Assembly: GCA_008632985.1 (NCBI GenBank)
Contig: QPGO01000096.1
Span: 1 to 64,000, forward strand
DNA from: Psammoneis japonica
Taxonomy: Eukaryota
Direction of reading: 5' to 3'
DNA length: 64,000 nt
Both the position numbers and the translations under genes were made by a program. Shown here piece by piece: positions 1,440-61,454 of this stretch (its first letter is position 1; the number at the start of each line of letters is the position of its first letter). The notes beneath the pieces were generated by a model. The model had not been told where the DNA came from. It worked only from the letters and a program-made list of their open reading frames with translations, and did no database searches.

Positions 1440-2200
1440 AGCTCCAAAGGCAAGGGACAACACGCATTGCGGCAGGGCGTGCGGACATTTCAAGGAAGTG
1501 ACCGTTCGGACAGGAGGGAATGCTTCTTGCAGTTGCGAAGTGTTCATGAAGCAAGGATGGTGCCATGATGCCATCATCTTTAACTTGCTGGGGCTTGAGA
1601 TAACACCACCATCTGAGTGCCGAAACTTTGATGGCATTGGTTCTTGGGACAAGATCAAAAATGGATGGACGACAAAGTCAATGAGAGTGTGGCATTTGGT
1701 GCAGATGGTGAAGAGAACAATGCGCAAGCAACATGCACACATTTTGCTTTCCAGCAGTGGACCCAATGTTTGAAAGCCAATCTGTCATTGAAGCCATGCT
1801 GGTGCCATGGGTGCCAGAACTTCACACCGTTGCAGCACCAAAAACATTGCGCCTCATTCTGTTGCCGCCCGTCTGAGACCAACCAAAAATGAAGATTGCA
1901 AAGGTTGGGCAAACCTTGAGAGGAAAGGTCCTTCCCGGGGACATTGTCACAAAGGTGGGCAATGTTAAAATGTCATCAAGAAGCAGAGATGGAGCCCTCA
2001 TCCCTGGATGCCGGGGCTCAGGACATGCTTGAGATGCTTGAATGCTTCAAGAGAGAGCAAAAGATTGTGACATTTTTTGATGTGCTCAGTCAGCACAGAT
2101 GGAAAATGCTGCCACCCAATCGTTTGTTGTTTCGAACTGAACAAGAAACCAAAATGTGCGCCCATTTGCCGCAGCGAAACAAGGGCTGTCCAAAATTTTC
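1440..2200. mobile_element. TpA-depleted island A: degenerate transposon-like relic with SWIM-like zinc-finger remnant
   Basis: By eye, TA occurs only at about 1581, 1601 and 1966 in 760 bp. The + strand ORF 1498..1773 contains CSCEVFMKQGWCHD, spaced like a SWIM CxC...CxH finger of Mutator-like elements. Confidence 0.5.
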
Positions 2201-2546
2201 GACTTAACATCTCTGCTGGCAAAAGTTTCGAGTTACATAACCTTTGCATGTGTCAAGCAACAGTTGTGTAATGTTAAACCGCTTGCATTGCTCATGTGGA
2301 CGTTGTCCACCCCTCAAACTTTTCACCGTGCTTTCACCACGTGGTTTTGATTTACAACACGGTAAAGTGTTGACGTAGAATTCTACGTATTTTATGTACG
2401 GCATGCTGTGGTTTGAGAGTGCCTTTTCTCGCATCGGCGGCTGCCCTCGTGCTCATGCCGCACTCACAACACCGCATTGCGATAGGGTTCGAACAACAAT
2501 CATCACTCGTTCCCAACCCTTTCAACAAGCTCTAGAGTAGAGGCCC

Positions 2547-10019: not shown

Positions 10020-13000
10020 TAGATGCCACGGAGGAACCGCCATCCTTTGACGTCTGATTCCGCTTTGTCACTCACTGCGCTGCACATTCTCATTTCTCCA
10101 CGTTCATCCACAAAGTCACAGGGGGGTGGTCCATTGACCTCCACGGGTCTTGAGTAGATGCAAACAGAGTCTTCGTGTTGTTGAAATCTCAACCATGCCT
10201 GGCACACTTTTTGTTCCAAAGAACACAAGTCGCGGGGTGGCACCCACTGTCACTTGAACCTTGGCATTTCAACAAAGACTGTGACTGTCGCATCATTTCA
10301 AGTCAGGCTGTCAAACCGGTTGAAGGGTGTGTTCCCATGGTGAAATGTTGATTGAGAGCAATGTCAGTGCACAAACCCCAATTGAAAACAAACAGATGCA
10401 TGAAACAGACTTACGTTGGGGGCACACTCAACAGTTGTGTCTCAAAAGGAGCGTGCCCCATGGTTCATTGAATTGCACGGCAAACTTGTGCAATGTTGCC
10501 CAGTCTTTGATGTGCACAAAAGCTTTGTTGTGTCATAAAATGGAGTCAGGTGATGCCATGCACACTTAATTTCCAATGACACAAAACAAGCAATCCATGA
10601 GCCTGGCGGCAACTCATGATCCTGTGGATCCATGTGTGACACGCCCGGTGTGTTGGAGAAAAGCAAGATGCTGCCTGTTGCTCTGCTGAGCCTGTGCAAG
10701 CTTCTCAAACAAGGGATTGGTTGCACCTTTCTCCTTGACAATGGCAGGAATGACTTCCTCCATGGCTGCAGTGTTGTCATTGCCAGCAATGCAGGATTGC
10801 CAACAGCTTCCCAATGAGTGTGTTCACCAGAACAGCTTCTCTGCAGCATCAGGATTGTTGCCAACCATCACAGGAGGATCAACAACTGGTTCTTCCATGA
10901 TGCACCATGTCAACAACCATTGCAGGATCAGTGGCAGCAGATCCATCATCAGCAGCAACACCAGCAGGATTGCCAGTGGCTTCCCCAATGGACAAATCCA
11001 CTGGAGCAGCTTCCACTGCTGCAGCGCGCTGCTGTCACCATCAACATCCACAAGAAGATCAGCATCTGGCTCCTTTCAACAAATTCATTCTCATCAACAG
11101 CCATTGCAGGAGCAGCTGTTGGTTCTCAACAAATGCACCCCCGGAATGGCTTCATCCACAGCAACAGAACCAATGCTTTCCAGCTCCAGGTGGGACCTGC
11201 TGAGCTGTGACATCCACAGTTTTTTGGATCACACCGCGTGTCACACACGCACATTTCCTGCATGACTTGTGTTGAATTTTTGTCATTTTGTGTTGTGCAC
11301 TTGTTGAGCTGCCCATCCATTCAAGGGCAGGAGCATTTTTGGCAAAAACATCAAGTGGCAAGAGGCACAGCAGTTGCATCACAAACTTGGTTTTTTGTTT
11401 GATGTTCAAGACAAACATGTCCATCCATCAAATTCTCACACCATCATGGGTCCAATGTCACATGGAGTCCCACCCAGAGCTGGAGCACATCAACCATCAC
11501 CCAACAGCCACAGTGCAATCAGCAATGGGCTCCTCAACCACTTGGCTGCTGGGGTCTGCACCCATCCTCAACAGTGATCATGTCTCAGGTGAGTTTGACA
11601 TTCATGAACAAACAGGTTTTATTTCCATTCAAACTCAAGCAGTGTCACGGCCAATTGCTGGTTGGCTCACTCAGGTCAAAGAATGAGTTTGGCAGTCATC
11701 TCACCAGTGTTTGGACTGCAGGAAGGTTGCCAACAAAGATTTTCTCCAGCAATTCTTTGCCCAGCAGCCACTCTAAATGGTGCTGACAATGCTGCTGAGC
11801 AAGCTTGTCTTGCCTCTCATTGACTCATCTCAATGCAAAGTCCAGCCTCTGATCTGAGAAGCGCAGGAATCTCAGTCATGTGCTTTGGATCTCAAAGAAC
11901 TTTGAAAGCAACCACAACAGTTGGGATGGCATGACAGTGGACTGCCGCGCAGGTTCTGCAGTCTGGCGGGTCTCCAGCCATCTGACACACTCCCATGACA
12001 TAAAAGCATTTGCATTTAAAGAACAGCAGCCAAGGGACAACAAGCCAAAAAGCAACACAGGTCATGCAGAAGAGCCACACAACCATGCAAGCCACAAGTG
12101 TGGCCACAATGGCATTGCAGGCTTGATCGCACAGAAGTGTGGCAAAGTCATCAATTTCCACAATTCGGCAGTCCAAGAAATGGACATTTGCACCAATCAG
12201 CTTCAGCAAGGAGCACACGAACACCACAGCAAATGCAGTGAGGAGAGCTGGGCTGCAGACCACAAGGACAAAGAATGCCACAATTGTTTGATCATGTGGA
12301 GAATCTCATTCACAGAAACACACAAGAAAAGCTGCAAGTTCCAAAAGAAACCACCAACGATTCAGCTGTGGTTCTGCTTGCCATGAAATGTGCACAGCAT
12401 GAGATTGAAGAAGAGAATCCGCAGTGCAATGCATGCAATCACAATGGGGGTGATGGTGTGACGTCAACAAAGATGGATTGGCAAGAGTGTGCTTCAATGC
12501 AAGCAAAACTTGAAACCAATTGTGTGGTGAGCATGCAAGATGCGGTCACTCGCCAGTTGCTGAGGCCAGCCCAATCGTGAATTTGCAGAACATGCACTTG
12601 GAAAAGCCCTGGAAAATCCAACCGAGTCCTGCTCATGATTTTTGATTTCATGGGATGTTGGCAATTTGCACTTGGTTGCTCGCTCTCTCTGCTCTGGAGG
12701 TGGAATCAATCAGAGGCCAAGACTGGCGTTGGATGCATTCACAATGAACACGATCCATTTTGGAGCTGTTCTCTGCAATCACATTCTGACAGAGCCCATT
12801 GCAAATGCACTTCAAACATGTGAACAACGCACTTTGCCATGGTCGCCAGTCAATGACCAGCCTGCAGATTGTCGTGGCTTGTTCTTCTGCAGCACATCAG
12901 GCCTCAAATTTGTTGAATGAGCCTCCTGAAGAGGGATGGTGAGCTTGACAAGACTGTCTTTCTCTGTCTCAATCATTGAGGAATGGCCTTGATCTGTCCC

Positions 13001-14150
13001 ACAATGATGTCTGTTGTGTTGCCTTCGAATGCATCAACTCCATTTGGATTGAAGGTTTGCAGCTGCCTCCAAGACTTGTGCCCATTTTGCCATTGTGCAG
13101 CCACAGTGCCAGTGGAGATTGAGACATGCATCAAAACACAAATCCTCTTTTGAAACAAAGGAGCAAGGAGGATTCAGGATGCTTCAACGTGCTCCAATCC
13201 CAACATGTGCAACAGTTGGCATGCCTTCCTCCACATGTGATTGACAATGCTCGCAACAAATCCCACCAACATGCACCCAAGAATTGTCAAAGAACACATG
13301 ATCAGACTGCAACAGCACTTGCTTGCATGAAACTCCAACCAGAGTTTGACTGGAGTGCAAGTGTCGGCTTCCACCAGATGACCCATTGAGAATTCAAACA
13401 GAAGCCACCTTGCTTGACAGACTCACTTTCATCCATGCTCGAATGCAGCAAAGTCGGAATGATGAACTCAAAAGAGATCAAGCTTCACCAGTTCAACAAG
13501 CTCATGTTGAACAAAAACCAGCCATTGTGTGGGCAACAGAGCTGACCTGAGCCGGAAATGACCCATCGTTGGCCACTCATGGCATCAAAAAAGAGTTTGG
13601 AGATTTGTCCTTGAGACACCAGAAAAGGGTGCAGGTGTTTCTTGTGGTGCATCTCTTGATGTCATTGGTGCAAAGTGCAAAGCTCCATGCGCTGCACTGC
13701 TGCATGTGTGGCATGGCACATGCACTTGCTCTCATCAACTCACATTGTCTTGTTTTCCCAAGTTCCACCCGCACCCCATTTTCATTTGTCATGCCATCCC
13801 CACCACAATGCAACCAGGTTCGCCTGTTTTACACTGGCGTGTGTGCTGCAGTCTTGATCCAAAGGTGCTTGGTCCACACAGCCTGCTCTCTCGTGTTTCG
13901 AAACGAACTTGAGTCCGCTTGACTCCGGTTGATTCAAGTGGCCACTGAGCTCATCAACTTGCAAACCGAACAAGACAACCTCTCCTGTGCACCTGTCTTC
14001 ATCCACCGACTTGGACTCCATTTCATGCAAAGAACCTTTCATTGGGTTTCCGACAACCGCCCTTTCTGTTTCCAGTGTGAGCCGTGTTTTCGGTTTGAAA
14101 TGCTTCTCCGCACGTTTGACAGTTGACAGACGAATGCTTCAGCCACCCCA
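10020..14150. mobile_element. TpA/CpG-depleted island B: hypermutated transposon-like relic
   Basis: By eye, only 5 TA in 10570-14150 (11620, 11774, 12001, 12017, 13830). Many overlapping Tyr-poor, Cys/His/Gln-rich ORFs. The minus strand near 12780-12850 reads GDHGKVRC-(fs)-TCLKCICNGLCQNVI, a SWIM-like remnant. Confidence 0.6.
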
Positions 14151-25873: not shown

Positions 25874-26489
25874 CAATTTGTGTGTGGCAGGATGAATGAT
25901 ACCATGTACCAACTAATGATGGATTGCGAAAATTGAATTCGGGAATCGTGGGCCGCTGCAACAACTCGCATTTTGCTCCACGCAAACGTGCAGGGGGGTC
26001 GGACGTGTTGCACAATGGACATAGGCAGGAAACAATAGAGAGAGAATGAGACCAGGGGCATTTTATTAAATATGGGGGTCAGACAAGAGAACGTGAAGAG
26101 GGGCATGTTCTCTTAGGCAGAGCTATCGAATCTAGTTCAACGTCTAATTACCGATGAACTGAACAAAGACAACATCTCATCGTGCACGACACTACCAGTA
26201 TGATGCTACAATCTAAGGTAGACTCATTTTGCCATAGCCAGCTCTCCTCCATTCTTTTTCTAAAGCTTTCTAATACACTACTTTAAAAGGTAACAGCAAG
26301 CCAAATGACGATACATTCCTGTTCCACATTTTGTTGAAGGAACGTAAGGCGGGGCGGGACCGCTGCGATGGATCTACATGCGGTGGTCTAATTTAAAATA
26401 GCTCGTACTTCCCACACTTCACCGTGTTATTTTGACCTGCTGCCCGGCCGCATGATGTGTTCGTCAAGCCCTCATCAGGGCCATTAGAC

Positions 26490-29400
26490 CGTTTGCAAGA
26501 GCTGCACATTTGATGCTTCAAATGCCACTTGTCCCCCTGCACCCGGTTGTCAGGCTGACAAAACTGCTGATTTATGCTGAAATCGGCCGGCGTGTGTGAG
26601 ACGCAACTTTTTGGGACCCATCATCTGACAAGCGGCACTTGATTTTGCTGACTGTTTGCATGTCTGCATTTGCTGAGCCAAACAACATGCACATGTGGCC
26701 ACAGTCATTGTTGGTGCATTCTGTGATGACTTGCATTTGTGTGGACAAAGCTCGCCACCCATCTCTGGCTCTGAAATTTTCTGTGTTGGCAAACACACAC
26801 ATCATGTTGGCAAGATTTGTCCTTTTTTCAAAGAGTCACAAGCTCTCAAGAAGCAGACTGCAGTGTGCAGATCCATCCTCAACACCAGTCAGAAAAGTGT
26901 CATTTTAAGAGAATTTGGCAACCACACATGTGTTCACAGCCAGCTCCCAAAGACTTTGTGACCACATGTGGCCTTGTGGCTAATTTCAAGCAACTCTCGT
27001 TAATCAAAAGAAGCGCCATGCTTTGTCACAGGAAGCAGAGTTCCTGCACTCCCTCTGACATGAGATGCTGCTGCAGTTCTTGGCATTTCTTCCTTTTGTT
27101 GCCTTCTGCAACATGCTTGTTGACATGTTGGGTGACAATGTCCATGGCTCCTGCAAAGAGAGAAGCTGACCATCACTCAGAATGACCAGACAGCAAGTGA
27201 CGGCACAACCAAGAAATTTGAAAAAGAGGCAAAAATGAGAAGAATGCAAAGCTCTGAGTGGCAGTGAGAGAATGTTGACAAATGCCAGAGTGCAAGAATG
27301 AGCTGGCAAGTTTGTTCCTGTTCCCCCCGCAGCACGTTGATCTCAGTCAGTTGAGTGCAACACCAACCAGTTGCCATTTTTCAGGAAACAAGCCATGCAA
27401 GAATGCTGCCAGGAGGACAAACCATGATTGCTGTGGGATGAACCCAGCACTTGGCCATTTGGTGCTGTGCAAACAATGCTCAGATTGGATTTTTGCACAC
27501 AGAGAAGAAAGATGAAACAAAAACTCAGTTTGCTGGCTGCCAATTTGTTGCTGCCAGGACAAGCAGGCAGATGCTGTTGAGACTGGCTGGAGAGCCCCAC
27601 TCGTTTGATCCAAGTGGTCTCCAATGCAAGAAATCCAATCTTGCCAAACTGCAGCCCATGGCAATGATCCTCTCAACTGCAAAGGCAAGCCTTGGATCAC
27701 CTTGCCCTCTGTGTTGTTTGCTTGATTCTTCCATCCATGTCCCTCTCATGTGTTTGCAAGCAATGGCAGGTTGCTTTCCACACCTGAGTTGCTCCTTGCA
27801 TGTGTCCACACAACCAAAACCCACTTTTTTAATGCAGGATCCTCTTTTTGCCAAATCAGACAGCAAACAGAGAGGACACAAAAAATGTGGAGCTTGTCAC
27901 CATTTTGCTTTGCAATGTCGGCTCAGCTTCACCACGAAAAATGTGCGCACTTGCACTTGGCTGATTTTCACATGGTGAAGTGCTGCAAAAAAGAGGGAGT
28001 GCTGTCTTGAGTTCTTGGCAGCTGGTGGAGCTTTTGGTGCTGGACTTTTTGGCTGGAAAATTCTCTGCTTTTCTTCCACAAAAGCACCTGGCAAATTGCT
28101 GGGTGTGGCACCATCAACAGCCGGCATTTCTCTGTTGTCTGTCTGTTGTCTTTTTGAGCAAGCATTCTGCCACAGTGGGTCATTTTCTTTGCAATGTGGC
28201 CTCAGCTTCACCACAAAAAATGTGCGCACTTGCACTTGGCTGACTTTCACATGGTGAAGTGCTGCAAAAATGAGGGAGTGCTGTTTTCTGAGTTCTTGGC
28301 AGCTGGAGCTTTTGGTGCTGTGGTTTCACAAACAGACTGACACTCCCAGCTGGCTTCTTCTTTGAGTGAGGAAAGTGGCTCCTGACTTTTTGGCTGGAAA
28401 ATTCTCTGCTTTTCTTCTGCAAAAGCACCTGGCAAATTGCTGTGTGTGTCACCATCAACAGCCAGCATTTCTCTGTTGTCTGTCTGTTGTCTTTTTGAGC
28501 AAGCATTCTGCCACAGCAGGCTGTGCTGGATGCAACGCCTTGGTGGAGGTGGAGGCAGTTTTCACCATGGGAAAATTGCACAAAAACAACCTGCTTTCAG
28601 CAGCTGCTTGATCACAAACAAAGTGTGGGAACTGGTCCTTTGGGGGTTGGGGGGGCACTGACCACTGGCTTCATTTTTGGGGGGGGGGGGAGAAGGGCAG
28701 ATGCGGAGATGTGTGCACCACACGGATGTGAGCACACGTGTGTGCGAGGGCTTTGTGGCAGGGAAGGAATGGTGGTGTGAGGGTGCAATGGGGAGAAAAC
28801 CTCAAATGACCATGATGCAAAGAGGAAGAAGCCATGCCTTGTGCTCTCATCAATGGCATGGCTGTCCTGCATGGCAGCACAGCATTGCTGCATCAACATG
28901 GCACCAGGAGGGTGGAGAGCGATGACTTCAGGGTCTGTTGCAAAAACTCACTTTGGGCAGTGGATGCAAATGGACACAAATTTCATTGTTGTTTTTGTTG
29001 TTGCTGCTGCTGTTTGTCACATGTCAGGTGTTTTGAAGCAAAGCTTGGAGCAGGTGCCACAATCAAGTTTGCTGTTGAAATGTTGGCCTGTGCAGCAGTT
29101 GGCTGACAAGCACTGGCTGGCAGCAAAGAGTGGGACAAGCACCAGAATTTTAGCCCATCAATCAACCATCAAAACACCCAAAAGACAAAAAACCCTGCCA
29201 TCAAGTTGAGCATGCCACCTCAGTTGGCGCCCATCAAGAAGCACCTGCCTTCTTTGAAGGTCAAAGCAATGACAGTGTTGTGAATGGCCAAGTGTTCATG
29301 GTGTGCTGGCTGTGGCAGCTGTGATGTTTGATGTGCAATGCAGAGACAGCAATGTTCAGTGAGATTGGGAAGTGTGCTTCTTGTGAGACAATCTTTCAGT

Positions 29401-32400
29401 CCATCAGAGTGCATTTGTCCTGGCTCTGTGATGAGAACATCATTTGGCGCAGCAGTTTTTTTGCCCCCCCCCTTTTGCCGGGACTCTCAGTGGAGTTGCA
29501 GAGGGCCACCACCAGAGTGGTTTGTCAAAATGATTCAATCAACCTGCAAAGGGATCACCTGAGGCACAAAGATGTGGCAGCTGACATCACAAAGTCAATG
29601 TGCATGCAGAAGCACACTGTTCTGGGCTCCCCGTTGGACATGGGAAAGACACCACTGCTTTGGCTGGTCAAGAAGGAGGGTTGTTGCAACAAAATGCACA
29701 TTGAAGCAAAGGTGCTGCATTGCTGTCTTGCAAATCTTGTCAAAGTGGAGAAAGTTGTGGCCAAACTGGGAAAGCTTGGAATCCAGGATGATGAAGACAG
29801 CACCAGCAGGAGGACAGAAAGGGTGCTTTTGAGAGATGCAATGCACATGCCATGACACATGGATTGTCTTGGGTGAGTGCTGGAGTTTTTGGCAACACAT
29901 CATGAAGCACTTGCCTGTTGTTTGCAGCAAAACACAAAACACTCTGTGTCATCATTGCTGCCACCTGTGATCTCTCCACCCACCACACTTCCCCCCCACA
30001 GTTTGTCACCTTGGAACATCACCAGCAACAAACAGCCATCCAGGAAAAAGAAGTTGAACAACTCTGCCAGATGCGTGTCACTGAAAACAAATGAAAATGC
30101 AGACTTTTCATCTGGATGACCTTGAAAAACTGAGCAAGCTTGGAGACAACCAGCATCACATTGATGAGGTTCTCTCCCCCCAAATGACACCTTGCTGGGA
30201 CCTCAAGGGGTTTGTGCATTGCGTCTGTCCAGTGCAATTGCCAGCACTGTTGCAGCTCCCCCAAAGCACCACCAAAGATGACCTTTTCCATGACAAAAAG
30301 GGAAAGTGCCATTTGCAAACCCACAAACTGAAAAAGAGCATTGCCAGTTGCCAGTTGGCTGCAAGGTTGAGGCAAAGGAACACATGACATGGAGAATCAG
30401 CAGTGTGACCTTGATGGGTTGGCCACAGAAGCACAGAAGATGGAAGCTCTCAATCAAAGTGATGAGACTGTGCCAGGGAATCCACCTGAAGCAGAGCAGC
30501 ACAGCTCTCTGACAACCGATGGCCAGCTTCATTTGCAAGCTTTGAGGGACAACAGCAAAACCAACACCATGTGCATTTGCCAAAAGCAGCGATTTGTTCA
30601 CAGCGCCAGCAAAGCACCCTCTCCAGCTCCCATCACACAACACACTCACAGAAGGCTGGATCTTTAAGTGCCTCAGCATCACAGGCATGTGGTGGCCTCT
30701 GCTGCCTGCACTGGAAGCTGGCGGGTCAACGAGTTGAGATGGTGTCATGGCTGATGGTGGCATGTCTTTGCACCGCTTTGTGAGTCAGAGTGGCATGCTC
30801 TCGCTCTGTCAGTTTGAGCAGCAACAGGAGCATCAAAGAAGGGGCTGCAAACAATGCCACTTGAAATTGTCTGGGTGGACATCTGATCATGGTGGCAGCA
30901 CCTCTCCACCGGCCAGGCATGCTCTGGACAGTTGTCATTGGAGTGCAGCTGCATTGGGAGCTCAGCTCATCTCACATTTGCTGCGAGAATCTTGCCCCCA
31001 TCCCCAAAGGGTTTCCTGGTGAAAAGTCATCAAAATTTCCTTTGTTGGTCTTTTGCTCTTTGCAAGACACTTGTTCCCTCAGTGGGGCACTCTTCCCTCC
31101 CTGCATTGTTTCAACAATGGGCTCCTTTGCTCATTTTCCTTGCGCCAAGGGCAGTGTTGGTGGTGCTGTGGTGTGTGGGGTGCTGTCCAAAGATGCCTTT
31201 GCCTTTTCATCTTTTCTTTGCTTGTCCTCAAATTTGGCAGTCTTTGTCAATGTCTGAAGCAAAGTGCTGGGCCTCACTTTCACAGGACCCAAGAGCCCAA
31301 AAACAGCTGGGCATGAGGAGGGGCAAACTCCTGCCAACAAAGGGTCTTTGACTGGCCCAGCTTGCAGCACAATCTGTGGTTGTAAATTTGTCATCAGGAT
31401 CCATCTCTTGAATGCCAGCAAGACAGTCCTCTGAGAAATTGGCTGCTGCATCTGTTTGGCATGCCCTTCCAGTGTCTGTGTGTCAAATGGTGGGGTTCCT
31501 CTGGTTTGGTGTTGTTGGAGCCTGTCTTTTCATTGCCATTGTCCAGTTCATTGATGCTTTCAACCTCATCTCTGGACAGGCTGTCATCAGAATCTGCATG
31601 TGATTGTCGTTGCCTGACTCCAAAATGTGCTCGATGCTTTGCAAACTGTTCTTCGCCAATGATCTGAGGCGCGCCCTCCTGTTGCTGATGTCATGACCAT
31701 CCAACGCACTTGCTGGAACATCAGCTGCACAGAAAAAGTCATGTTGGTGTTTCTTCTTTCTCCTTTTGCAGCTCATCATCAAATCATGGTGACTTGTCTT
31801 CAAGATTTTCTTCCTTTCAGTGGCTCCAAGGCAGAGAAATTGACCCACAATTTTCTCATTTTGTGCATTTGAAACACCCAGCCCAATCTTGTGTTTGTGC
31901 TCCAACAGCTCTTGGTTGTGTTTCCAGCACAACAGCTGTGAGCAGCAAAGAAACAACACAGGAGGAGCCAGCTCCCTGTTTCTTCATCACCCGCTGCTCA
32001 ATCTTCAAAAAATTCATTGGGCAAAAATCATCTTTTGAGTGTTGTTGCAACTCATTTGCTGGGTCAGAGACTATGGGAAAATCAAGCAAGTGTCATTTTT
32101 GGCATGCTTTTAGCTCATGTGCAGCTGGAGCATGTTGCCACTGAATGATGATCCATCCTCAATTTCATGACCAACGGCGGCCATGGCTCTTGATTGGCAG
32201 AGCATCAGCGTCAAAAGCCAAAGGGGCCTGCTGGAGCATGCGCCAAAGTGGCCGAAGTCGATGAGCCTGTGAGGACCACACAATGTGGATGACAAGAAAG
32301 ATGACAGTGAGATGCCAATGCCAGTGTGGGCTGTGCGTCATGTGCCAGAGCCATTCAAAATCCTCACAAAAGCCTGCTGCACTTTGAACTTGTGGCAATC

Positions 32401-32530
32401 CTCTGTTGGCCGGCACAGACAATGCGAACCCTTGCATGCAATCAACCAAGCACTACACACCCGAAGCAACTGACACGAGAGCCCTCCTGCTCAGGGGTGG
32501 GCAATCGCAGTGAACGCATCGCACCTCCGC
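26490..32530. mobile_element. TpA/CpG-depleted island C: hypermutated transposon-like relic
   Basis: By eye, only 4 TA in 27003-32070 (27830, 29151, 30665, 31383). The minus strand near 26670-26730 gives ECTNNDCGHMCMLF, like a Ulp1-type protease QxNxxDCG motif. Contains an internal tandem duplication. Confidence 0.6.
27901..28517. repeat. Imperfect tandem duplication (about 280-340 bp unit) inside island C
   Basis: 27901 cattttgctttgcaatgtcggctcagcttcaccacgaaaaatgtgcgcac... recurs at 28181 as cattttctttgcaatgtggcctcagcttcaccacaaaaaatgtgcgcac...; both units end ...gagcaagcattctgccacag. Confidence 0.9.
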
Positions 32531-32666
32531 ACCCATCTACCGGTACGGTATCCATAACTCCATCACCCATTGAATGATGAACAGCAGCAACAAATCGCTC
32601 CTCGTATTCTGACGGCCCTATTCCGTTCAAAGTGGTTTCCAATCGAATATGATAGTCTTGTCGACA

Positions 32667-33689
32667 ATGAGAATATCTATCCTTAATTTTCTAGCTGTGT
32701 TCTTCCTTGCACAATTTCCCTGCGTGATATCCTGGACAACCACCAGTCGGCACAGAGTTTGTCGGATTCCAATAAGGCTTGCCTCGTCAACGATGAACAA
32801 CCCTCAAACAATGTCGAACACTGAAAGAGACAGTGCTATTGATAACTCAAAATCAGTTGCATCATTAGAAAAGCAGAAACGCGTGCGCAAACTGCAAGGC
32901 AAGCTCCTCAAGAAAATGCGCAATACCTGCCGAGACTACGACATGCTTCAAGACGGTGATCACCTCATGGTTTGTGTATCGGGTGGAAAGGATTCTGCCG
33001 TACTTTTGTATCTACTCAAAATTTTGCAGGAACAGCTTCCTGTCAAATTTGAAATGACAATTGTGCACGTGGACCAGAAACAACCTGGCTATGATGGACG
33101 AGAGCTGGTGGAGTGGCTTGACAATGACATGAAAGTTCGGTACAAGATTGTTGAAGAGGACACTTACTCCGTGGTGAAAGACAAGACTAGTGAAGGGAAG
33201 TCTTATTGTACCGTGTGTAGTCGACTGCGTCGTGGCATTCTCTATTCAACGGCCTTGGAGCTTGGGTGCAATAAGATTTGTCTAGGTCATCATGCGGATG
33301 ACTGTTTGGAAACGCTCTTTCTAAACATGATGCATGGCGGTCAGCTCAAGGGTATGCCAGCCCGTTATACCAGTAAGCGAGGAAACTTGGGTGTTCTTCG
33401 ACCTCTTATGGAGTGTTTTGAAGATGACATTGCTGAGTATGCAGCACTGCAAGAGTTTCCAATCCTCCCGTGTAACTTGTGCAAAAATCAGCCCGACTTG
33501 CACCGGCCGCAAGTCAAGCTTTTGCTGCAAACGCTCGAGGCCACTTTCACTCCGACGGCCAAGCAAAATATGCTTCGATCTTTATCAGATATTCGGCCAA
33601 GCCACCTGCTCGACCAATCTTTACGTGAACAGTGTGGAATGGATCCAATTACTGGCGAGGAGACTTCCGACGACCACGAACCACTGTAA
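32667..33689 (+). CDS. ttcA: tRNA 2-thiocytidine(32) synthetase TtcA, with N-terminal targeting peptide
   Basis: SGGKDS PP-loop, CTVCSRLRRGILY, LGHHADD, MPA...RPL and PILPCNLC. Hydrophobic signal peptide ending VIS-W, followed by a S/T/R-rich transit-like stretch. Confidence 0.9.
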   Translation: MRISILNFLAVFFLAQFPCVISWTTTSRHRVCRIPIRLASSTMNNPQTMSNTERDSAIDNSKSVASLEKQKRVRKLQGKLLKKMRNTCRDYDMLQDGDHLMVCVSGGKDSAVLLYLLKILQEQLPVKFEMTIVHVDQKQPGYDGRELVEWLDNDMKVRYKIVEEDTYSVVKDKTSEGKSYCTVCSRLRRGILYSTALELGCNKICLGHHADDCLETLFLNMMHGGQLKGMPARYTSKRGNLGVLRPLMECFEDDIAEYAALQEFPILPCNLCKNQPDLHRPQVKLLLQTLEATFTPTAKQNMLRSLSDIRPSHLLDQSLREQCGMDPITGEETSDDHEPL

Positions 33690-34329
33690 AAGGCGTCGTC
33701 GGACAATGCAATGATTTGATGATCCACGCTTGCAATTGCTGCTCTCATAACGATACAATTTCGAAATAAGACATGGAAGTCATTGTCTTGCTGCATCTGA
33801 TATCAAATCTCTACTCATGGCCTACACATGTATCTTAATTGCAGAAGTCTGTTCCAAGGCAGTCTTTGCAGTTTTAGTGCTTGAAGTGTAATATTAGCTT
33901 GTTTGCGCTGTCCGTCTGAATGAAAAGTATCCATGGATGACATTTCGCCCGATGTTGCTCTCATCGTTGCCCCGAAGAATCAATCGCAATAACGAAAAAA
34001 GTGAGCATGAAAGTCCAACGATGAAACTATCTTCCTATCCGTACGGATGTCTGTGTGTATTTGTCGTAGGCCCTGTTCAGCAGAAGTAACTCATTGGCCG
34101 ACTCTCGCAAAGGCTCAGCATTGTCTTCACCACCCTCCTCCAATTCGCGGACAGCATTGGCATCGCCAGGATCCAATGAAACTGCATTCTCTGCATTCTG
34201 AGTCGCAACGACATTCTTTGAAATCATCAATGGCAGCACGAGGGAAGAAGACCCCCCAAGGCCGTTCCACCTGTACGACAAATCCAGGATGGTCACAACA
34301 GACCCTCCTGCTCTTTTCGTATGACAGGT

Positions 34330-35355
34330 GCAACACAATTTGCAGCAAAACAAATTCCGCTGTCAAGAAAAACCTGCGCATCCTCGCAACCCTCGCGGAC
34401 TGCTGCTCTGACTGACGGATCCAGGATGCTTCTAGCGAGTGCTCAAAGCGGCACAGATTTCGACTGGTTTTGGCTCAGACCCACATGTTTTCTCATCCCC
34501 CCCCCCTTTTTTTTGTTCCGGCATCGCACGGGAAAGGACGGCAGTCCAAAACAGCATTTGGGTCTGCCAGCTGGAGATGTTTCTTGGCGTCGCAGGTCCA
34601 CGCACTTAAATGTTGAGATTGTTTGCTGTCACGGTAAAATCGCTGCACGACTCACTCAGCAGTTGCTGCAATGGGGCTCACTCAGGTGAAAGAAGAGGAG
34701 CTCGACTCTGGCTCAAAGAGCAGGTTCTTTGCAACAGCACGTGACGACGACACAAATGCTCAACTTTGTGCGAGCGCTTCGGCCTCCACTGCAGGCGGGC
34801 TTCTTCTTCCCTCTTTTAGCTTCTGCTTGCGTTGACATGAGCAGTTGCTTCAGTCGATGAACAATGTTTTTGGAAGGCGTGTGATGCTTTCAGCTCACAT
34901 CTCCCGCTTTCTTCTGGTGATGATTTCGTCGCTGTCATCTCAGACGACGGGTGTTTTTGCTTGCAGCTCTGGGGTGCATGCGGTTCCGAAGAAGACCAGT
35001 CGCTCTGCACACCAGAACAACCAACAACACGAGCTGTCCTCGACAATGGCCTCATCGTTGCATGAGCCATCACACACTTCCGCAATCACCGCAAGGTCAG
35101 ATCTCTTCAGAGAACGAGGAATCGCACAGCTTCTCGCCCCTCCGATCGGAACTGTCACATCGTTTGCCTTGTTGCTCATTCTGCGACGGAGTTCTTGCTG
35201 TGATTCTTGCTTGGGACACGCATGCGTGTGCAGATGATGATGATGAACATGACCTCTCCTGCTTTTTGTTAGATCAATTGTTTCTCTTTTGGGGCCGCCA
35301 TTCTTCTTTGAAGTTTCATCGACGGCCTGGAGTGGGCACTCACAACAACGCACTC
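34330..35355. pseudogene. Island D: TpA-depleted but CpG-retaining relic of an unidentified minus-strand gene or element
   Basis: By eye, 5 TA in about 1 kb (34433, 34607, 34635, 34817, 35270) while CG is frequent. Broken, Tyr-free minus-strand ORFs. Confidence 0.5.
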
Positions 35356-35447
35356 TAGCAGCCAGCTAGCCCAAGCTCTCTAGCTACTAGCTAGTAGCCA
35401 CAGCTCTACCGGTGCTGTAGGCCTCTCTAGCTAGCTAGCTAGAGCTA
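35355..35447. repeat. CTAG/TAGC-rich low-complexity tract
   Basis: ctagcagccagctagcccaagctctctagctactagctagtagcc...ctctagctagctagctagagctat, immediately adjacent to island D. Confidence 0.8.
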
Positions 35448-35864
35448 TCGCGGTGTTCAGATCGGTGTTCGGTTCCCTTTCAAAAAGGTTTCCATTCGAT
35501 GGAACCATCATGTAGTAAGAAATCGGTGATTGGTTGTTAAATAAAATGCATCAATACGATATTTTTATTTAGGCCTTCTATTCTTCTTCGCTTTTAAGTA
35601 ATCACTTTAGTACGACGAACACGTTTTGTCGTCGCGACTTCGCAAAAAGTTCAGACTCTGGTTTTGCTGCGCGCTTTTCTCCCTTCTCCCTCGACGGACT
35701 CTTCAACATTTAGGTTACAGGTTACAGTCTACCTTACTCCGAAGCTCCGCGTCAGGAAGAAACGGGCACGAGGAGAGGCTGTCAACTCATCAGCATTGCG
35801 TTGGTCATGAGCTTCCCCCATGTCGGCTTGGGGGGGCTTCCAGGGGTTTACGGTTGCGCAGACG

Positions 35865-38800
35865 ATGGCATCGATCGAAGCGCCTTCTCACAATAACGGC
35901 AGAAGCTGTGGTTGCTCTGCTCGGAGCCGAGCCTGCGTCATTATATTGACTTATACTGTGCTCTGGGTTTTGCACTATCTACTTGTTCACTTCTCTTCCA
36001 CCGGAAGCCAGCTTGGTAACATTAAGCCGGCACTTCTTATTCTCGCAGTTGAAATGCTCAAATTCGCCTTTGCTGGCGGATTGTTGGCTGCAAACACCAA
36101 AGCTCAGATGGGTACCGTTAAGACTTTACTCAACCGGCTTCCAATTATGCAGTCCCTTCTGAAAGCTTATCTACCTATTGCGGCTATCTACGCAATATAC
36201 AACAACCTAATGATCGTCAACCTCCGATACTTCGATCCTACGACATACCTTGTGCTCTCCAGTTCTCGTCTTGTGATGACCTCCTTTGTGTGGCAATGGG
36301 TCTTCCAACAAAAGGTCACGCCAGTTCATTGTGGATCTTTGACCTTAATCACAATTGGAGTGCTCATCAAAGGGTTGGTTCCTGCAATGATCAATCATGA
36401 AGAGGACCGGGAGCAGTTTACACTACAGCACTCATGCCACGTATTGTTGGTTCTGGCCCAAATGGTTCTTTCCGTCGTGGGGTCTGTTTACAATGAAAAG
36501 ATTTTAAAGGAACGTGCGAACAAAGACCCGCACTTGCACAATGCTTGCCTTTATTTGAACTCAATCGTAATCAATGCTGGCATCGTGTTTTTCACTGTGC
36601 CGTCGACAACGGCCATTGCAGACATGATCAAGGCTACGTGCTCCTCTGCCAGTGGTCTGGGGATCATTCTCACGCTTGCTTCCGTGGGAGTTGTCACGTC
36701 TTTGTTTCTCCGTTATGTTGACTCTGTCACCAAGGCTGTCGCATCAGCAGCTGAGACTGCGCTTACCGCGGTCATTGGGCACTTTGTCTTTGGTTATGAA
36801 ATGACCCCATTGGCTTCAGTATCGGTTGTCCTCATCTTCCTCGGTTCATACTTGTATGCACGACCTCAGCAGTCATGTTTACACAGCAACCGACGCGGTG
36901 CACTCAAAAGTGGAATTCGGAAGGCTAGACTCTGGTATATGGGCGTGCTCGTTGTCTCAGCCCACGTTGCTTGCATCGTGAGGACATCTATTCACATGAA
37001 TTCTCGATTTTTACCAGCTAGCAAAGTGCCGACTACCGTTATGGAGAAGGAGCAATGGCTTGGATTATTGTCTGATTCGGTTGTTTCTCCAAACGAAATG
37101 CCCTCATGCAGAAACCCTAAACTTGCGAAAGAGGTAGATCCTAGAGGGCACAAGTCGGCAGCGTTTGAAGCTGCGATTCAAGCGTTTCAAGAGATCGACG
37201 CAGATTATTTTCTTACCGCCGGAACTCTTCTCGGCTTTGTTCGTGAGTGCCGAAATTTTGATAAAGACGTCGACTTTGTTGTATCTTTGGACTGGCTTAA
37301 GAAAGAGAACAACAGTAAAGTACTGGATCATGCGTTTCATACTAAAGGCTTCAAAAAGAAAAAAGTCTTTCCGGGTGTCGATGGCACTGAGAAATCGCTG
37401 GGCGGCGAGATAGTGTTCCTCCTGAACTCCGCCAGAGTCGATCTCTTCGTTGGCACCTACAGCCCAAGCTATTACGTAAACGGGGTATCGCTGTTCAATT
37501 GGACCTTGGCATGCCCCAAACCAATGTCTAGTGTTGAAGACTTTATCTACGGAAACTTGACCGTCCGCGTGCCCATGCCCTACCATGACGTTCTATTGGC
37601 ATTGTACGGTGATGACTACATGGTTCCAAAAATTCGATTTGGGGAACAGTGGGAAGATAAGGCCTTTAGGTATATTAGCGAGGGTCGCTGTGTGGTTGTA
37701 CGAGAGGGAGACAAGCCTGAATTAAACACAACGGAAGTTGCAAGTCGCAATGGACGTGGGATCGTTGCGTGTCTGACCGATCGAGCATCTGTGGCACATG
37801 CATTAGCTTTAGTTGATGGTATGAGCGAATTGGTCGCTCCACCCAGATTGGAACTCTACCACATTGGTGCACTCAGCTATTTCCTAAAGGCTCAGTTTGA
37901 GAAACACTCTTTTGTGACCGTTACGGATCTGACGAGTGGCCCACTAAAGAGCTTGCTAAGTAAGGCTGACAAGACAGACGAAGAGCTCGCTACCCACTGT
38001 CATCGTGCCGCCATTAGAATGAGCAAGCTCCGATACATTGTACTTTTGCGGCCGTCAATCATCTTCCTTCAAGATCCTCTGAACTTGGTGCGCACTACGG
38101 AATTCTATCACATGTATCATCTTCGTAACTCGTCTTGTCCTGTTGGGGCATATGTCACAGCTACGGATTGGGAACTGGCAGAGAGTATAAGGCCTTTGAC
38201 TAAAGGCTTGGCTTCTGATGCGCTCTGTCTGGTTCGAGCTGCATACAATCATTCCACCCCCAGTATTGAATCGAAATCAAGCTCCCAGAGCCTCGCCTTT
38301 GTACATGAAGCAGCCCACCGTATTGGCCTATGGGCGTACCCTTCCATTGAGAATCCTTTGTGGATAAGACACCATATGGATACAGAGAAGTCTCACATGG
38401 TTCTTAATACAAACAGAAAAAATGGTACCGTGTTCCTTCCTCAGGAGTATCAAGATTCGTTACTTTCAAGCTGGCGTCGGTATTTGGACGCAACAGCCAC
38501 CATTATGATGGACAGACCAATAGACTGGGTTGCCTTCGATGGAGGCTTCCACTTCAATGTAGGCACATTAAACTCCATTGCGGCAGCGAAGAAATCCACT
38601 ACTCTTGGTTCTTCTATCGTGAACATTGATCTGGCGCTTACCAAGGACAGGAGGCTGGTCGCCATTCATAACGACAACTCTTTCTGTCCATTTGAATATC
38701 AAGGAAGCTCGCTGTCCAAGCCAGTTTCGTCCATGAGGTTTGTTGAAGCAAGAAAGCATACAAATCCTTGTATACCTGAAGACATGTCTCGTCGATGGCT

Positions 38801-40478
38801 TGATAGTAGTAAACGAAACACGTATCGCTGCATTTCTGAGAAGATGGCACTCGGAATGGAATTCCTGCAATTGCTCCCTCACTCTAACTTTCTGTTCGAC
38901 CTGAAAGCACCAACCGAAGAGCTTCAAGTGGAGCAAGCGCAAATGCTTGATTCATTTATGAAAGGTACCAAGATGCTGAAAAGAAAGCATGGTTCAATCT
39001 CAGCTCGCTTCTTTTCTGTTTCAGAGCAGAAAGATCTAGTTGCATCAATCATTCCACAGCATGCTTTGGACGCCCTTCAATCTGATCCTTCCATAAGCCA
39101 ACTGCAATATTACGTCAACGTTCCAACTTCGTTGGCCTGTTCTCAGATATATTCATGGATAAAGAACAAGGAAAGCTTTCTGAATAAAAACATTCTTGGA
39201 TGTTTCGTCGTACTCAATCATGCTCGAATGGAAAAGAGCTGGGATTCGTTTGTCAAAAGGAATCGGGTTCCACTCGATGTTGACACTCTTGATGGGGTGC
39301 TACCAAAGAAGATTTGCGATGTCCCGAGAAAACAAACAGAGCCCGATCAGCTTTTATGGAACACCGGTTTCAGGCATTGCGTCAACGAAGGATTTGAAAT
39401 AGTACACCATCCATTTTCTTTCCCAGTTGAAACCGATTTGAAGGCGATACCGATGCTGGAGGCTATTCCCAATTTTGATGAGAACACTTTCCAGACAATT
39501 CAGTCCCTTCTGACGAATGCAATGACAGATGACATCTGGCTTCGATATGTTTCTCATTGGGGATACGTCTCTCCATCCAGCTGGTCAACACGGCGTCACT
39601 GGTGGTTCGAAGGGAACAGAACCGTGGCTTCAATTCCACCTGGAAGCAACGAGGATGCAGTTTTTCGCTGCGTTACGAAAGTACTAGTCGTTATGCTCTT
39701 TTTTCGATTGGAAGAGCTCAAGCTGATAAGCCTTGACGATGTGGTTTTGGTGGACGAGAAGCAGAAAACCACTTGGAGGCATATCTTCTCCAACAAGGCC
39801 GGTGTCGAAGAGAGTGACGAGAAGAGATCTTTTGTCTACTCGAACGCAATGTGGACATATGTAAGCAAATCAATTCACACTGCAACTAACTTGCACTTTG
39901 TGAACGCAATGCAGCACTACATCTTGGATCCAATGGGAATTGCGGGCTCATTCGATACGAAAACATCATACCCTCCTTATACCGCCCGTGGTTTTGTCGG
40001 CCCACTCGATGATCTGCTACTCATAGGAAGCACGTTGGCAAGCCAGGGAGTGTCGTCGAAGACACGCAAGCGAGTCATTTCCGCCGCGAGCGTCAAACTT
40101 ATGCTACGTGACTCAACCGCAGGAGTGAAAGGTTCGTTCTCGAAAGACGTTGTAGTGGCATCGATGAAGCGATTTCGCAATCCCAGTGATACTTTCAATT
40201 TCACCCATGGAGTTGTAGATGGATACGGTATGGGACTATGGCGAGTGAAGGGGTGGCGCTCAGGCCCGTTGGGTCAACCGATTCGCGGATGGCTTTCAAT
40301 GGGAAGTAGTGAGGCTCTGGTTTACTTTGACACGACTGGTCTGGTTGTGGCGATGCATGCCTCACGGCAACTGCGGTATGAATTGACTTCTTCATTTGCC
40401 CAGGTAGTCCGCGGTGTTGGAGAACATATTTTGAAAGGGTTGCGCCTCAATTCTGACAATGCTGCTTTGGTAGGGTGA
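35865..40478 (+). CDS. Multidomain fusion: SLC35A-type nucleotide-sugar transporter + LicD/fukutin-like nucleotidyltransferase + degenerate GT71-like region + GDPD-like + beta-lactamase-like domain
   Basis: Single uninterrupted ORF. NST: IYAIYNNL...FDPTTYLVLSSSRLVMT. LicD: YFLTAGTLLGFVRE...DKDVDF. GT71-like: GRGIV...LELYH...IIFLQDPLNL. GDPD: IDLALTKDRRLVAIHND, FDLK. Beta-lactamase fold: FRCVTK, ISLDD, TWRHIFSNKAG, FVYSN, ILDPMG, GYGMGLW. Confidence 0.8.
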   Translation: MASIEAPSHNNGRSCGCSARSRACVIILTYTVLWVLHYLLVHFSSTGSQLGNIKPALLILAVEMLKFAFAGGLLAANTKAQMGTVKTLLNRLPIMQSLLKAYLPIAAIYAIYNNLMIVNLRYFDPTTYLVLSSSRLVMTSFVWQWVFQQKVTPVHCGSLTLITIGVLIKGLVPAMINHEEDREQFTLQHSCHVLLVLAQMVLSVVGSVYNEKILKERANKDPHLHNACLYLNSIVINAGIVFFTVPSTTAIADMIKATCSSASGLGIILTLASVGVVTSLFLRYVDSVTKAVASAAETALTAVIGHFVFGYEMTPLASVSVVLIFLGSYLYARPQQSCLHSNRRGALKSGIRKARLWYMGVLVVSAHVACIVRTSIHMNSRFLPASKVPTTVMEKEQWLGLLSDSVVSPNEMPSCRNPKLAKEVDPRGHKSAAFEAAIQAFQEIDADYFLTAGTLLGFVRECRNFDKDVDFVVSLDWLKKENNSKVLDHAFHTKGFKKKKVFPGVDGTEKSLGGEIVFLLNSARVDLFVGTYSPSYYVNGVSLFNWTLACPKPMSSVEDFIYGNLTVRVPMPYHDVLLALYGDDYMVPKIRFGEQWEDKAFRYISEGRCVVVREGDKPELNTTEVASRNGRGIVACLTDRASVAHALALVDGMSELVAPPRLELYHIGALSYFLKAQFEKHSFVTVTDLTSGPLKSLLSKADKTDEELATHCHRAAIRMSKLRYIVLLRPSIIFLQDPLNLVRTTEFYHMYHLRNSSCPVGAYVTATDWELAESIRPLTKGLASDALCLVRAAYNHSTPSIESKSSSQSLAFVHEAAHRIGLWAYPSIENPLWIRHHMDTEKSHMVLNTNRKNGTVFLPQEYQDSLLSSWRRYLDATATIMMDRPIDWVAFDGGFHFNVGTLNSIAAAKKSTTLGSSIVNIDLALTKDRRLVAIHNDNSFCPFEYQGSSLSKPVSSMRFVEARKHTNPCIPEDMSRRWLDSSKRNTYRCISEKMALGMEFLQLLPHSNFLFDLKAPTEELQVEQAQMLDSFMKGTKMLKRKHGSISARFFSVSEQKDLVASIIPQHALDALQSDPSISQLQYYVNVPTSLACSQIYSWIKNKESFLNKNILGCFVVLNHARMEKSWDSFVKRNRVPLDVDTLDGVLPKKICDVPRKQTEPDQLLWNTGFRHCVNEGFEIVHHPFSFPVETDLKAIPMLEAIPNFDENTFQTIQSLLTNAMTDDIWLRYVSHWGYVSPSSWSTRRHWWFEGNRTVASIPPGSNEDAVFRCVTKVLVVMLFFRLEELKLISLDDVVLVDEKQKTTWRHIFSNKAGVEESDEKRSFVYSNAMWTYVSKSIHTATNLHFVNAMQHYILDPMGIAGSFDTKTSYPPYTARGFVGPLDDLLLIGSTLASQGVSSKTRKRVISAASVKLMLRDSTAGVKGSFSKDVVVASMKRFRNPSDTFNFTHGVVDGYGMGLWRVKGWRSGPLGQPIRGWLSMGSSEALVYFDTTGLVVAMHASRQLRYELTSSFAQVVRGVGEHILKGLRLNSDNAALVG

Positions 40479-61310: not shown

Positions 61311-61454
61311 GGTTGAGGTTTGAACAGGTATGACTATCGTACCGGCGGTGAGATCATCGGGCTCATGTCAATTTTTGCGGATTTGAAGCGTTGATGCGGG
61401 GCGCGTTGAATTTGAAATTTGATAATAATTTGTATTCGTAGCAATGGATTTTAT

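What the first reader, a model, noticed from the sequence alone, without database searches (positions are those of the whole stretch)
34330..35355. Island D has lost TpA but kept CpG, so the two processes are separable
About 1 kb has only 5 TA (3 in TTTA/TAAA) yet abundant CG (e.g. cctcgcggac, gtgacgacgacac, ctccgatcgg). TpA loss is therefore not a by-product of CpG decay and appears faster or earlier. This is probably a recently hit locus and the best one for reconstructing an ancestral sequence.
Basis: partly seen in the sequence, partly recalled or inferred. Interest (0 to 1): 0.75.

Follow-up and report, generated by a model that had tools for sequence, protein, structure and literature searches.

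The report
TpA erasure outpaces CpG decay
A 1.3-kb patch of diatom DNA has had most TA steps rewritten to TG or CA while its CG steps are only starting to decay, a mid-stage snapshot of a fast TA-directed mutation process that I found described only in one unrelated alga.

Summary
The island spans 34088-35355, with 7 TA against 42 expected and CpG o/e 0.81, versus 0.17-0.30 in islands B, C and F. But CpG is not spared. Contigs of one read set differ from the assembly at 13 sites in the island's right half: 8 are CpG transitions (8 of 38 CpGs, against 2 of 187 in the flanks) and 2 are TA>TG. None restores a TA, so most TA loss predates the haplotype split. Across 664 kb of this pennate-diatom genome, 41% is TA-poor, 9 of 47 such segments look like D, and strong CpG loss was never seen without TA loss (0 of 332 TA-normal kb). 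A gypsy copy pair gives TpA conversion 10-20 times faster than CpG decay. The mutated A follows a rule TAT>TAC>TAG>TAA, with no ApA effect. So there are two chemistries on one shared target, not two independent targets. D has no paralogue, no homologue and no TA-intact allele, so it is a poor locus for ancestral reconstruction. Closest known: TpA hypermutation in Bigelowiella natans (bioRxiv 2026). This scan has already reported the same process on other DNA of this genome.

The parts
34088..35355 (.). Island D: TA-poor, CpG-nearly-normal, single-copy segment of unidentified origin
   Evidence: HMM segmentation; 7 TA vs 42.4 expected, 68 CG vs 82.2; one match in G000
34656..35301 (.). Polymorphic right half of D: 13 differences from X1 contigs, of which 8 CpG transitions (34740, 34772, 34856, 34879, 34906 lost in the contigs; 34979, 35222, 35250 lost in the assembly), 2 TA>TG (34818, 35271) and 3 others
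34088..34597 (.). Left half of D: no difference from one X1 contig (32451-34597, depth 57.7); 3 TA, 26 CG
34433..35271 (.). The five surviving TA of the finding, all in slow 4-mer contexts (CTAG, TTAA, GTAA, TTAG twice)
34494..34513 (-). Purine run A8-G10-A followed by TG, about 407 bp from the left edge of D; resembles a polypurine tract before an LTR, or an element terminus (weak hint)
34943..35341 (-). Stop-free 133-codon frame, rich in Cys and without Tyr, possibly a rewritten coding remnant; no homologue found
35356..35450 (.). CTAG-rich cluster that marks the sharp right edge of D; TA intact
32613..33689 (+). Left host flank: TtcA-like PP-loop gene, TA normal; named top relatives are pennate diatoms
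35811..40478 (+). Right host flank: 1555-codon frame with an N-terminal nucleotide-sugar transporter domain, TA normal
10021..14150 (.). Island B (comparison): repeat with TA-intact family copies elsewhere; TA o/e 0.03, CpG 0.30
26486..32537 (.). Island C (comparison): repeat-derived; TA o/e 0.03, CpG 0.17
61453..64000 (.). Island F (comparison; continues to C98:74712); TA o/e 0.02, CpG 0.18
1435..2204 (.). Island A (comparison): TA o/e 0.06, CpG 0.49

Best explanation
D is a silenced, probably mobile-element-derived or foreign fragment at a middle stage of a two-speed mutational process that works on the same marked domains. (1) Shown: a fast process converts TpA to TpG or CpA on both strands of genomic DNA after insertion, with a rate set by the base 3' of the A (TAT > TAC > TAG > TAA). 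(2) Shown: in the same domains CpG goes to TpG/CpA about 10-20 times more slowly, but well above background. (3) Shown: in D the fast-context TAs are nearly gone in both the assembly and the read contigs, slow-context TAs are still being converted, and CpG decay is under way. (4) Inferred: the fast process is enzymatic adenine deamination (A to inosine, read as G) by a TadA/ADAT-type enzyme. (5) Inferred: the slow one is deamination of 5-methylcytosine laid by a DNMT5-type enzyme, and both follow one silencing mark. The processes are chemically separate but not independently targeted.
For: At TA sites of intact family copies, island B has CA or TG (for L005: 37 CA, 23 TG, 0 TA of 73 in the main alignment). 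D-like hit copies: TpA 51/109, CpG 36/220, TpT 9/198 per base; old copies 40/89 and 81/199; intact controls 19/346, 49/603, 18/593. Gypsy pair L105/L106, 95% over 6186 bp: 67 CA-versus-TG sites, 44 TA polymorphisms, 73 of 446 CpG changed, 54 other changes; rate ratio 10-21 for 134-250 ancestral TA. A four-rate strand-additive model fits the ten 4-mer retentions with R2 0.99 (2.64, 1.75, 1.00, 0.35). D alleles: 8 CpG transitions, 2 TA>TG, 3 others; CpG 8/38 vs flanks 2/187, p=1e-5. Nesting: 0 of 332 TA-normal 1-kb windows have CpG o/e under 0.4, and 168 of the 174 such windows have TA under 0.15; residual TA and CpG correlate over 43 untruncated segments (rho 0.67, p=7e-7). CpG transitions relative to other transitions: 6.5-10.6 in 3 hit pairs vs 2.1-4.1 in 4 intact pairs. 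The genome has cytosine methyltransferase and TadA/ADAT-like domains. The same TpA spectrum was measured directly in Bigelowiella.
Against: No methylation, enzyme or mutation-accumulation data here. D's origin is unidentified, and its TA>CA/TG history rests on composition plus two allele differences, not on an intact homologue. The CpG deficit in D alone is not significant (p=0.06). One 8.5-kb segment (C5:235552-244103) has CpG o/e 1.02. In Bigelowiella GC>AT was 175 times rarer than AT>GC in the hypermutable region, which fits independent targeting. The allele data come from contigs of one run, possibly the assembly's own sample; contigs drop variants, so counts are lower bounds on both sides. 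The deaminase hits are an ordinary small set (5 loci). The lesion could be on T (RTA) rather than A (TAY); sequence cannot tell.
Confidence: 0.6

Rival explanations
1. Independent targeting, the first reader's strong form: TpA editing recognises new or foreign DNA by its own signal, before or without methylation, and CpG methylation is recruited separately and later.
For: 9 of 47 TA-poor segments have CpG o/e of 0.7 or more, one at 1.02; pooled, they keep CG at 0.98 of background per base with fast-context TA at 0.10. Bigelowiella shows TpA hypermutation with almost no GC>AT change.
Against: Even the CpG-normal C5 copy has lost 31 of 446 CpG since its split from C81, 6.5 times the other transitions. 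D has 8 CpG allele differences. No CpG-poor, TA-normal window among 332. A 10-20-fold rate difference alone predicts D's composition.
Confidence: 0.25
2. By-product: error-prone repair of T:G mismatches from 5mC deamination (polymerase eta-like patch synthesis) mutates nearby TpA, while most CpGs are restored.
For: Both changes are nested in the same domains. Non-CpG, non-TpA transitions are also raised relative to transversions in the hit pair (40 vs 14, against 17 vs 37 in an intact pair).
Against: Polymerase eta favours WA (recalled, not from a call), yet TpT/ApA transitions are 9/198 in hit copies vs 18/593 in controls, and TpA transversions are 2/109. Surviving TA are not in CpG-poor surroundings (ratios 1.03-1.09 vs 0.93-0.98 in normal DNA). 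Conversion is near saturation when only about a tenth of CpG is lost.
Confidence: 0.08
3. D keeps CpG because it is small or edge-like and weakly methylated, not because it is at an earlier stage.
For: CpG o/e is 0.63 in the first 250 bp of large islands vs 0.29-0.42 further in.
Against: Segment length does not predict CpG o/e (rho -0.19, p=0.23); 756- and 952-bp segments have 0.32 and 0.21. CpG turnover between D's alleles is high.
Confidence: 0.05
4. D is natively TA-poor sequence, or an assembly artefact, and was never mutated.
For: No homologue shows its earlier state.
Against: The lowest TA o/e among 262 TA-normal windows is 0.30 (those windows were selected as normal). The CA+TG excess of 40 matches the TA and CG deficits of 35 and 14. 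The five survivors of the finding sit in the slow contexts. Two TA>TG allele differences exist, and read contigs confirm the sequence.
Confidence: 0.02

Closest known systems
TpA hypermutation of integrated NCLDV and virophage DNA in Bigelowiella natans (Mettrop et al., bioRxiv 10.64898/2026.01.13.699255; parts 1-3 of 5 of the text read; term search; supplements not seen)
   Same: TpA>TpG/CpA transitions on both strands, confined to bounded regions; a single-copy region can be hit; TA-poor sequences enriched for RT and DDE domains; ADAT2-like deaminase proposed.
   Different: Here it is a diatom; 41% of sampled DNA is affected to near saturation; targets include retrotransposons; CpG decay runs in the same domains; a 3'-base rule is seen. 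The preprint's main text has no occurrence of 'diatom', 'CpG' or 'trinucleotide'. It measured rates directly; here they are inferred from copies and alleles.
Repeat-induced point mutation (RIP) of ascomycete fungi (search listing and abstract starts; otherwise recalled)
   Same: Dense, dinucleotide-specific transitions on both strands of repeats, with sharp borders to host genes.
   Different: RIP makes C>T at CpA and creates TpA; this removes TpA by A:T>G:C. D has no detectable second copy.
DNMT5-dependent CG methylation of transposons in Phaeodactylum tricornutum (Hoguin et al. 2023, PMC9998398; abstract and outline only)
   Same: Gives the likely source of the CpG>TpG/CpA decay seen in TA-poor domains.
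   Different: Cannot remove TpA; methylation was not measured in this genome.
TadA/ADAT2 and ADAR adenosine deaminases (ADAR 5'UAG hot spot from a passage of PMC10661471; TadA's UACG substrate and the TA preference of adenine base editors are recalled)
   Same: A>G change with T/U on the 5' side.
   Different: These act on RNA or engineered DNA targets; here both strands of genomic DNA are changed, and the favoured 3' base is T then C, not G.

Membership tests
Bigelowiella-type TpA hypermutation | A:T>G:C transitions restricted to TpA | tested here: met
   TpA 51/109 vs TpC 8/285, TpG 8/224, TpT 9/198 in D-like copies; in D itself 2 TA>TG allele differences plus composition
Bigelowiella-type TpA hypermutation | Both strands hit (TpG and CpA products), acting on DNA after insertion | tested here: met
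   37 CA and 23 TG opposite TA of an intact copy; 67 CA-versus-TG sites between two copies; hit and unhit parts within single copies
Bigelowiella-type TpA hypermutation | Confined to bounded regions, host genes spared | tested here: met
   Flanking genes TA o/e 0.56-0.57, D 0.10
Bigelowiella-type TpA hypermutation | Almost no G:C>A:T change in the same regions | tested here: not met
   CpG transitions are raised in D (8/38 vs 2/187) and in hit pairs
Bigelowiella-type TpA hypermutation | Target of viral or other foreign origin | tested here: inconclusive
   D unidentified; a D-like segment on C5 is a retrotransposon with RT and RNase H domains
Bigelowiella-type TpA hypermutation | Rate about 1000-fold above background, active in some lines only | not testable with these tools
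   Needs mutation-accumulation lines
Bigelowiella-type TpA hypermutation | ADAT2-like deaminase as the agent | tested here: inconclusive
   5 PF14437 matches, three showing an HAE..PCxxC motif; presence alone says nothing on function
Fungal RIP | C:G>T:A at CpA/TpG, creating TpA | tested here: not met
   CpA>TpA 5/263 in hit copies vs 36/772 in controls; TA is lost, not gained
Fungal RIP | Needs a second near-identical copy | tested here: inconclusive
   D has one match in G000 and single-copy depth; a partner could have been lost or missed by the search
5mCpG deamination decay | CpG>TpG/CpA transitions above other transitions | tested here: met
   8/76 CpG bases vs 3/566 other bases in D, p=3e-6
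5mCpG deamination decay | 5mC present at the CpGs | not testable with these tools
   No methylation data; 27 PF00145 matches in G000
Polymerase eta WA signature (recalled) | Raised mutation at ApA as well as TpA | tested here: not met
   TpT 0.045 in hit copies vs 0.030 in controls

The most novel reading that the evidence does not exclude
Diatoms share with Bigelowiella a RIP-like genome defence built on a DNA adenine deaminase of the TadA/ADAT2 kind. It reads the same silent-chromatin mark as CG methylation, needs no second copy, and has rewritten about two fifths of this genome. Its TAT>TAC>TAG>TAA rule is the enzyme's fingerprint, and the fast TpA and slow CpG clocks together date when each locus was silenced. 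D shows both clocks still running between two alleles.
Probability: 0.35. Interest if true: 0.85.

Novelty: new variant of a known kind. Interest (0 to 1): 0.6.

Why it matters
If right, a natural TA-directed DNA mutator reported from one chlorarachniophyte preprint also works at genome scale in a diatom, on transposons and single-copy DNA. D and its alleles give a measurable relation between this mutator and CpG methylation decay (shared targets, 10-20-fold rate gap) and a sequence rule that can be used to screen candidate enzymes. The process removes Tyr codons and TAA/TAG stops, so dead elements keep long frames (the C5 element has a 1476-codon frame with 9 Tyr and 61 Cys) and can mislead gene prediction and repeat dating. 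D itself is one of many such patches and is not special.

Tried and rejected
Identity of D, all blank: Pfam on ORFs and on six frames (only sub-threshold hits); word-index protein search with one minus frame; phmmer against 1.84 billion representatives with the same frame; ESM Atlas on one 133-aa frame; Rfam; own-genome DNA and protein searches; local blastn/tblastn against the 664-kb sample and loci; earlier notes by sequence. Only one of six frames went to the large protein searches, so a homologue in another frame is not excluded. A reduced-alphabet comparison gave only noise. The purine run + TGA..AAACATGT look-alike at C98:90372 is the only other match in G000, but the pattern was drawn from both places, and that region has no copies and no inverted end: kept as a weak hint only. 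No TIR or LTR pair was found in D. No RNA holder listed. Runs X2 and X3 do not cover D. Islands B, C and F were not Pfam-typed (searches gave no scan); six frames of an intact B-family copy gave no family. Size or edge effect, polymerase-eta signature and CpG-proximity were tested and rejected or weakened. Literature: searches listed no description in diatoms; Maumus 2009 (PMC2806351) has no 'TpA', 'CpA', 'RIP' or 'dinucleotide' (term search only); a passage for TadA's context rule was not found. The library lacks most subscription papers.

Full report
Setting. The window is G000:C98:1-64000 of a 91.4-Mb assembly in 597 contigs. The gene left of the finding is a TtcA-like PP-loop protein. Its named close relatives include Amphora coffeaeformis, Nitzschia inconspicua and Fragilariopsis cylindrus, plus truncated labels that I read as Asterionellopsis, Pseudo-nitzschia and Seminavis, so the host is a pennate diatom.

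Observation. The TA-poor stretch starts further left, at about 34088, and ends sharply at 35355 next to a CTAG-rich cluster. Over these 1268 bp there are 7 TA against 42.4 expected, 68 CG against 82.2, and 221 CA+TG against 181. The CpG level is far above islands B, C and F and only slightly below background (p=0.06; 17 of 262 TA-normal windows are as low).

Direction of change. Islands B and C are repeats (57 and 44 matches, lower bounds). Island B's family has TA-normal copies, and opposite their TA the island has CA or TG. I polarised changes at sites where two or more TA-normal copies agree. In the TA-poor parts of three copies with D-like CpG (L006-L008), transitions per base were TpA 51/109, CpG 36/220, TpT 9/198, TpC 8/285 and CpA 5/263. 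In the TA-normal parts of the same copies they were TpA 8/97 and CpG 4/117. In four old copies they were 40/89 and 81/199. Each dinucleotide is counted on both bases, so 0.47 per base is about 94% per site. The process is TpA-specific, makes transitions on both strands, and can stop in the middle of a copy, so it acts on DNA in place.

Context rule. T>C occurs mostly after a purine (A 20/42, G 27/39, C 2/14, T 2/14), that is A>G in TAY on the other strand. In 275 kb of TA-poor DNA, retention runs from 0.005 (ATAT) to 0.27 (CTAA) and 0.44 (TTAA). A model with four strand rates (TAT 2.64, TAC 1.75, TAG 1.00, TAA 0.35) fits the ten values with R2 0.99. All five survivors in the finding lie in the slow contexts; the two TA of the left extension (34274, 34320) lie in fast ones.

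How special D is. I took six blocks totalling 664 kb (the window plus 100 kb of C98, and 100 kb each of C1, C5, C25, C50 and C75; picked without looking, 0.7% of the assembly, all from large contigs). Forty-seven TA-poor segments cover 275,443 bases (41%). Their CpG o/e forms a continuum from 0.08 to 1.02; 9 of 47 are at 0.7 or above, D among them. Residual TA and CpG correlate (rho 0.67 over the 43 untruncated segments). Segment length does not predict CpG (rho -0.19, p=0.23), although the outer 250 bp of large segments keep more CpG (0.63 vs 0.29-0.42). Of 664 one-kb windows, 174 have CpG o/e under 0.4; none of these has TA at 0.45 or above, and 168 have TA under 0.15. CpG loss is nested inside TA loss; the reverse case was not seen.

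Rates. The most CpG-rich segment (C5:235552-244103) is a retrotransposon with RT and RNase H domains (I call it gypsy-like from the RT-then-RNase H order), with a second insertion on C81, 95% identical over 6186 bp. The pair differs by 67 CA-versus-TG sites, the mark of independent conversion of one ancestral TA, by 44 TA polymorphisms, by 73 of 446 CpG, and by 54 other changes. With 134 (the minimum) to 250 ancestral TA, TpA conversion is 10-21 times faster than CpG decay. CpG decay is itself raised: CpG transitions are 6.5-10.6 times other transitions in three hit pairs and 2.1-4.1 times in four intact pairs (pairs picked by me from the 90 rows). Against transversions, by hand from the same call, the ratios are 9-19 and 1.1-2.7. 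A 10-20-fold gap predicts that a locus with D's TA retention (0.17) has lost 9-16% of its CpG; D's estimate is 17% with a wide error.

D's own alleles. Logan contigs of run X1 cover D at single-copy depth. One contig matches 32451-34597 without a difference. In 34656-35301 there are 13 differences: five CpG present in the assembly are TG/CA in the contigs, three TG/CA of the assembly are CG in the contigs, both TA of that stretch (34817, 35270, each TTAG) are TG in a contig, and three are of other kinds. Two clear bubbles show both alleles (27 of 49.1 and 36.6 of 71.6 depth). CpG differences are 8 of 38 sites, against 2 of 187 in the TA-normal flanks (Fisher p=1e-5); TA differences are 2 of 2 against 0 of 167 (p=7e-5). 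No difference restores a TA and none is CA-versus-TG, so the roughly 35 lost TA were converted before these haplotypes split. Limits: one run, perhaps the assembly's own sample; contigs merge or drop variants; I cannot tell whether 34598-34655, with two TA, is covered away from contig ends; 40 contig records were not shown.

What D is. Unknown. It has one match in the genome and no family or homologue. It lies between two ordinary host genes. A minus-strand frame is Cys-rich and Tyr-free, as expected of coding DNA after TAY>TGY, and a purine run followed by TG lies 407 bp from the left edge. A truncated retroelement or other foreign fragment seems likeliest to me (about 60%), a dead host gene less so (about 25%); both are inference. 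With 221 CA/TG sites, about 35 of them former TA and 14 former CG, and no intact relative, D is a poor locus for reconstruction.

Mechanism. Shown: two transition processes with different contexts and rates in the same domains. CpG decay cannot remove TA, ApA is not affected, and surviving TA are not in CpG-poor surroundings, so the by-product model has little support. Inferred: A-to-inosine deamination of DNA by a TadA/ADAT-type enzyme for TpA, 5mC deamination for CpG, and one silencing mark upstream of both. The genome holds five PF14437 matches and 27 PF00145 matches, which makes this possible but is no evidence for it. The data do not separate 'same mark, different rates' from 'TpA editing first, methylation soon after'; I put these at 0.6 and 0.25.

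Known context. Mettrop et al. (bioRxiv 10.64898/2026.01.13.699255; I read parts 1-3 of 5) measured TpA>TpG/CpA mutation at about 6e-7 per site per generation in integrated viral DNA of Bigelowiella natans, with GC>AT at 3.9e-9 in the NCLDV region, which is single copy, and proposed an ADAT2-like enzyme. Its supplements were not visible and may bear on the context rule. My searches listed no description in diatoms. Earlier notes of this scan report the same process, including 'TA lost, CpG kept' cases, at other places in this genome; they are unchecked AI notes and are not counted as support. I found the preprint by my own search before seeing it named in those notes.

Verdict. Real feature; a diatom variant of Bigelowiella-type TpA hypermutation, differing in scale, in targets and in running alongside CpG decay. 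It was wrong that CpG is spared and that D is the best locus for reconstruction.

Noticed in passing
L105:1415-5845 (G000:C5:235552-244103) and L106 (C81:324263-328714): Two insertions of one retrotransposon, 95% identical, both TA-converted independently; the C5 copy keeps a 1476-codon frame with 9 Tyr and 61 Cys. A far better locus than D for measuring rates.
   Followed up: yes
L006:1-2007, L007:1-2214, L008:371-2342: TA loss stops in the middle of single copies of the island B family, so the hit domain need not follow element borders.
   Followed up: partly
L130 (C301:34166-37723) and L131 (C297:3633-7190): C-5 cytosine methyltransferase domains lie inside TA-poor DNA (TA o/e 0.07 and 0.10, CpG 0.73-0.74); possibly methyltransferase-carrying mobile elements or viral insertions.
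   Followed up: no
L123:319-1791 minus (C79): One open frame joins a zinc deaminase motif to DIOX_N and 2OG-Fe(II) oxygenase domains; may be a fusion or two genes in frame.
   Followed up: no
L121 (C41) and L122 (C317): The same deaminase frame (324 aa, same motif) on two contigs; duplicate or uncollapsed allele.
   Followed up: no
L105 vs L106 alignment: Transitions outside CpG and TpA are also raised in the hit pair (40 transitions vs 14 transversions; several C/T in CT or CC context), unlike intact pairs.
   Followed up: partly
window 35811-40478 +: A 1555-codon frame joins a nucleotide-sugar transporter to weak GDPD-like and beta-lactamase-like stretches (both under cut-off).
   Followed up: no
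window 32400-32510: The right end of island C is a high-copy terminal sequence (contig depth above 1000 in X1; many 90-100 bp matches in G000).
   Followed up: no
window 45043-45730: Weakly TA-poor stretch (o/e 0.22, CpG 0.93) without a clear CA/TG excess; not called by the HMM.
   Followed up: partly
window 34483-34513 minus and G000:C98:90358-90390 plus: A G-run followed by TGA..AAACATGT occurs at these two places only, each in or beside a TA-poor segment; meaning unknown.
   Followed up: partly
window 35616 and 37431: Both transition differences from X1 contigs in the TA-normal right flank are also at CpG.
   Followed up: no
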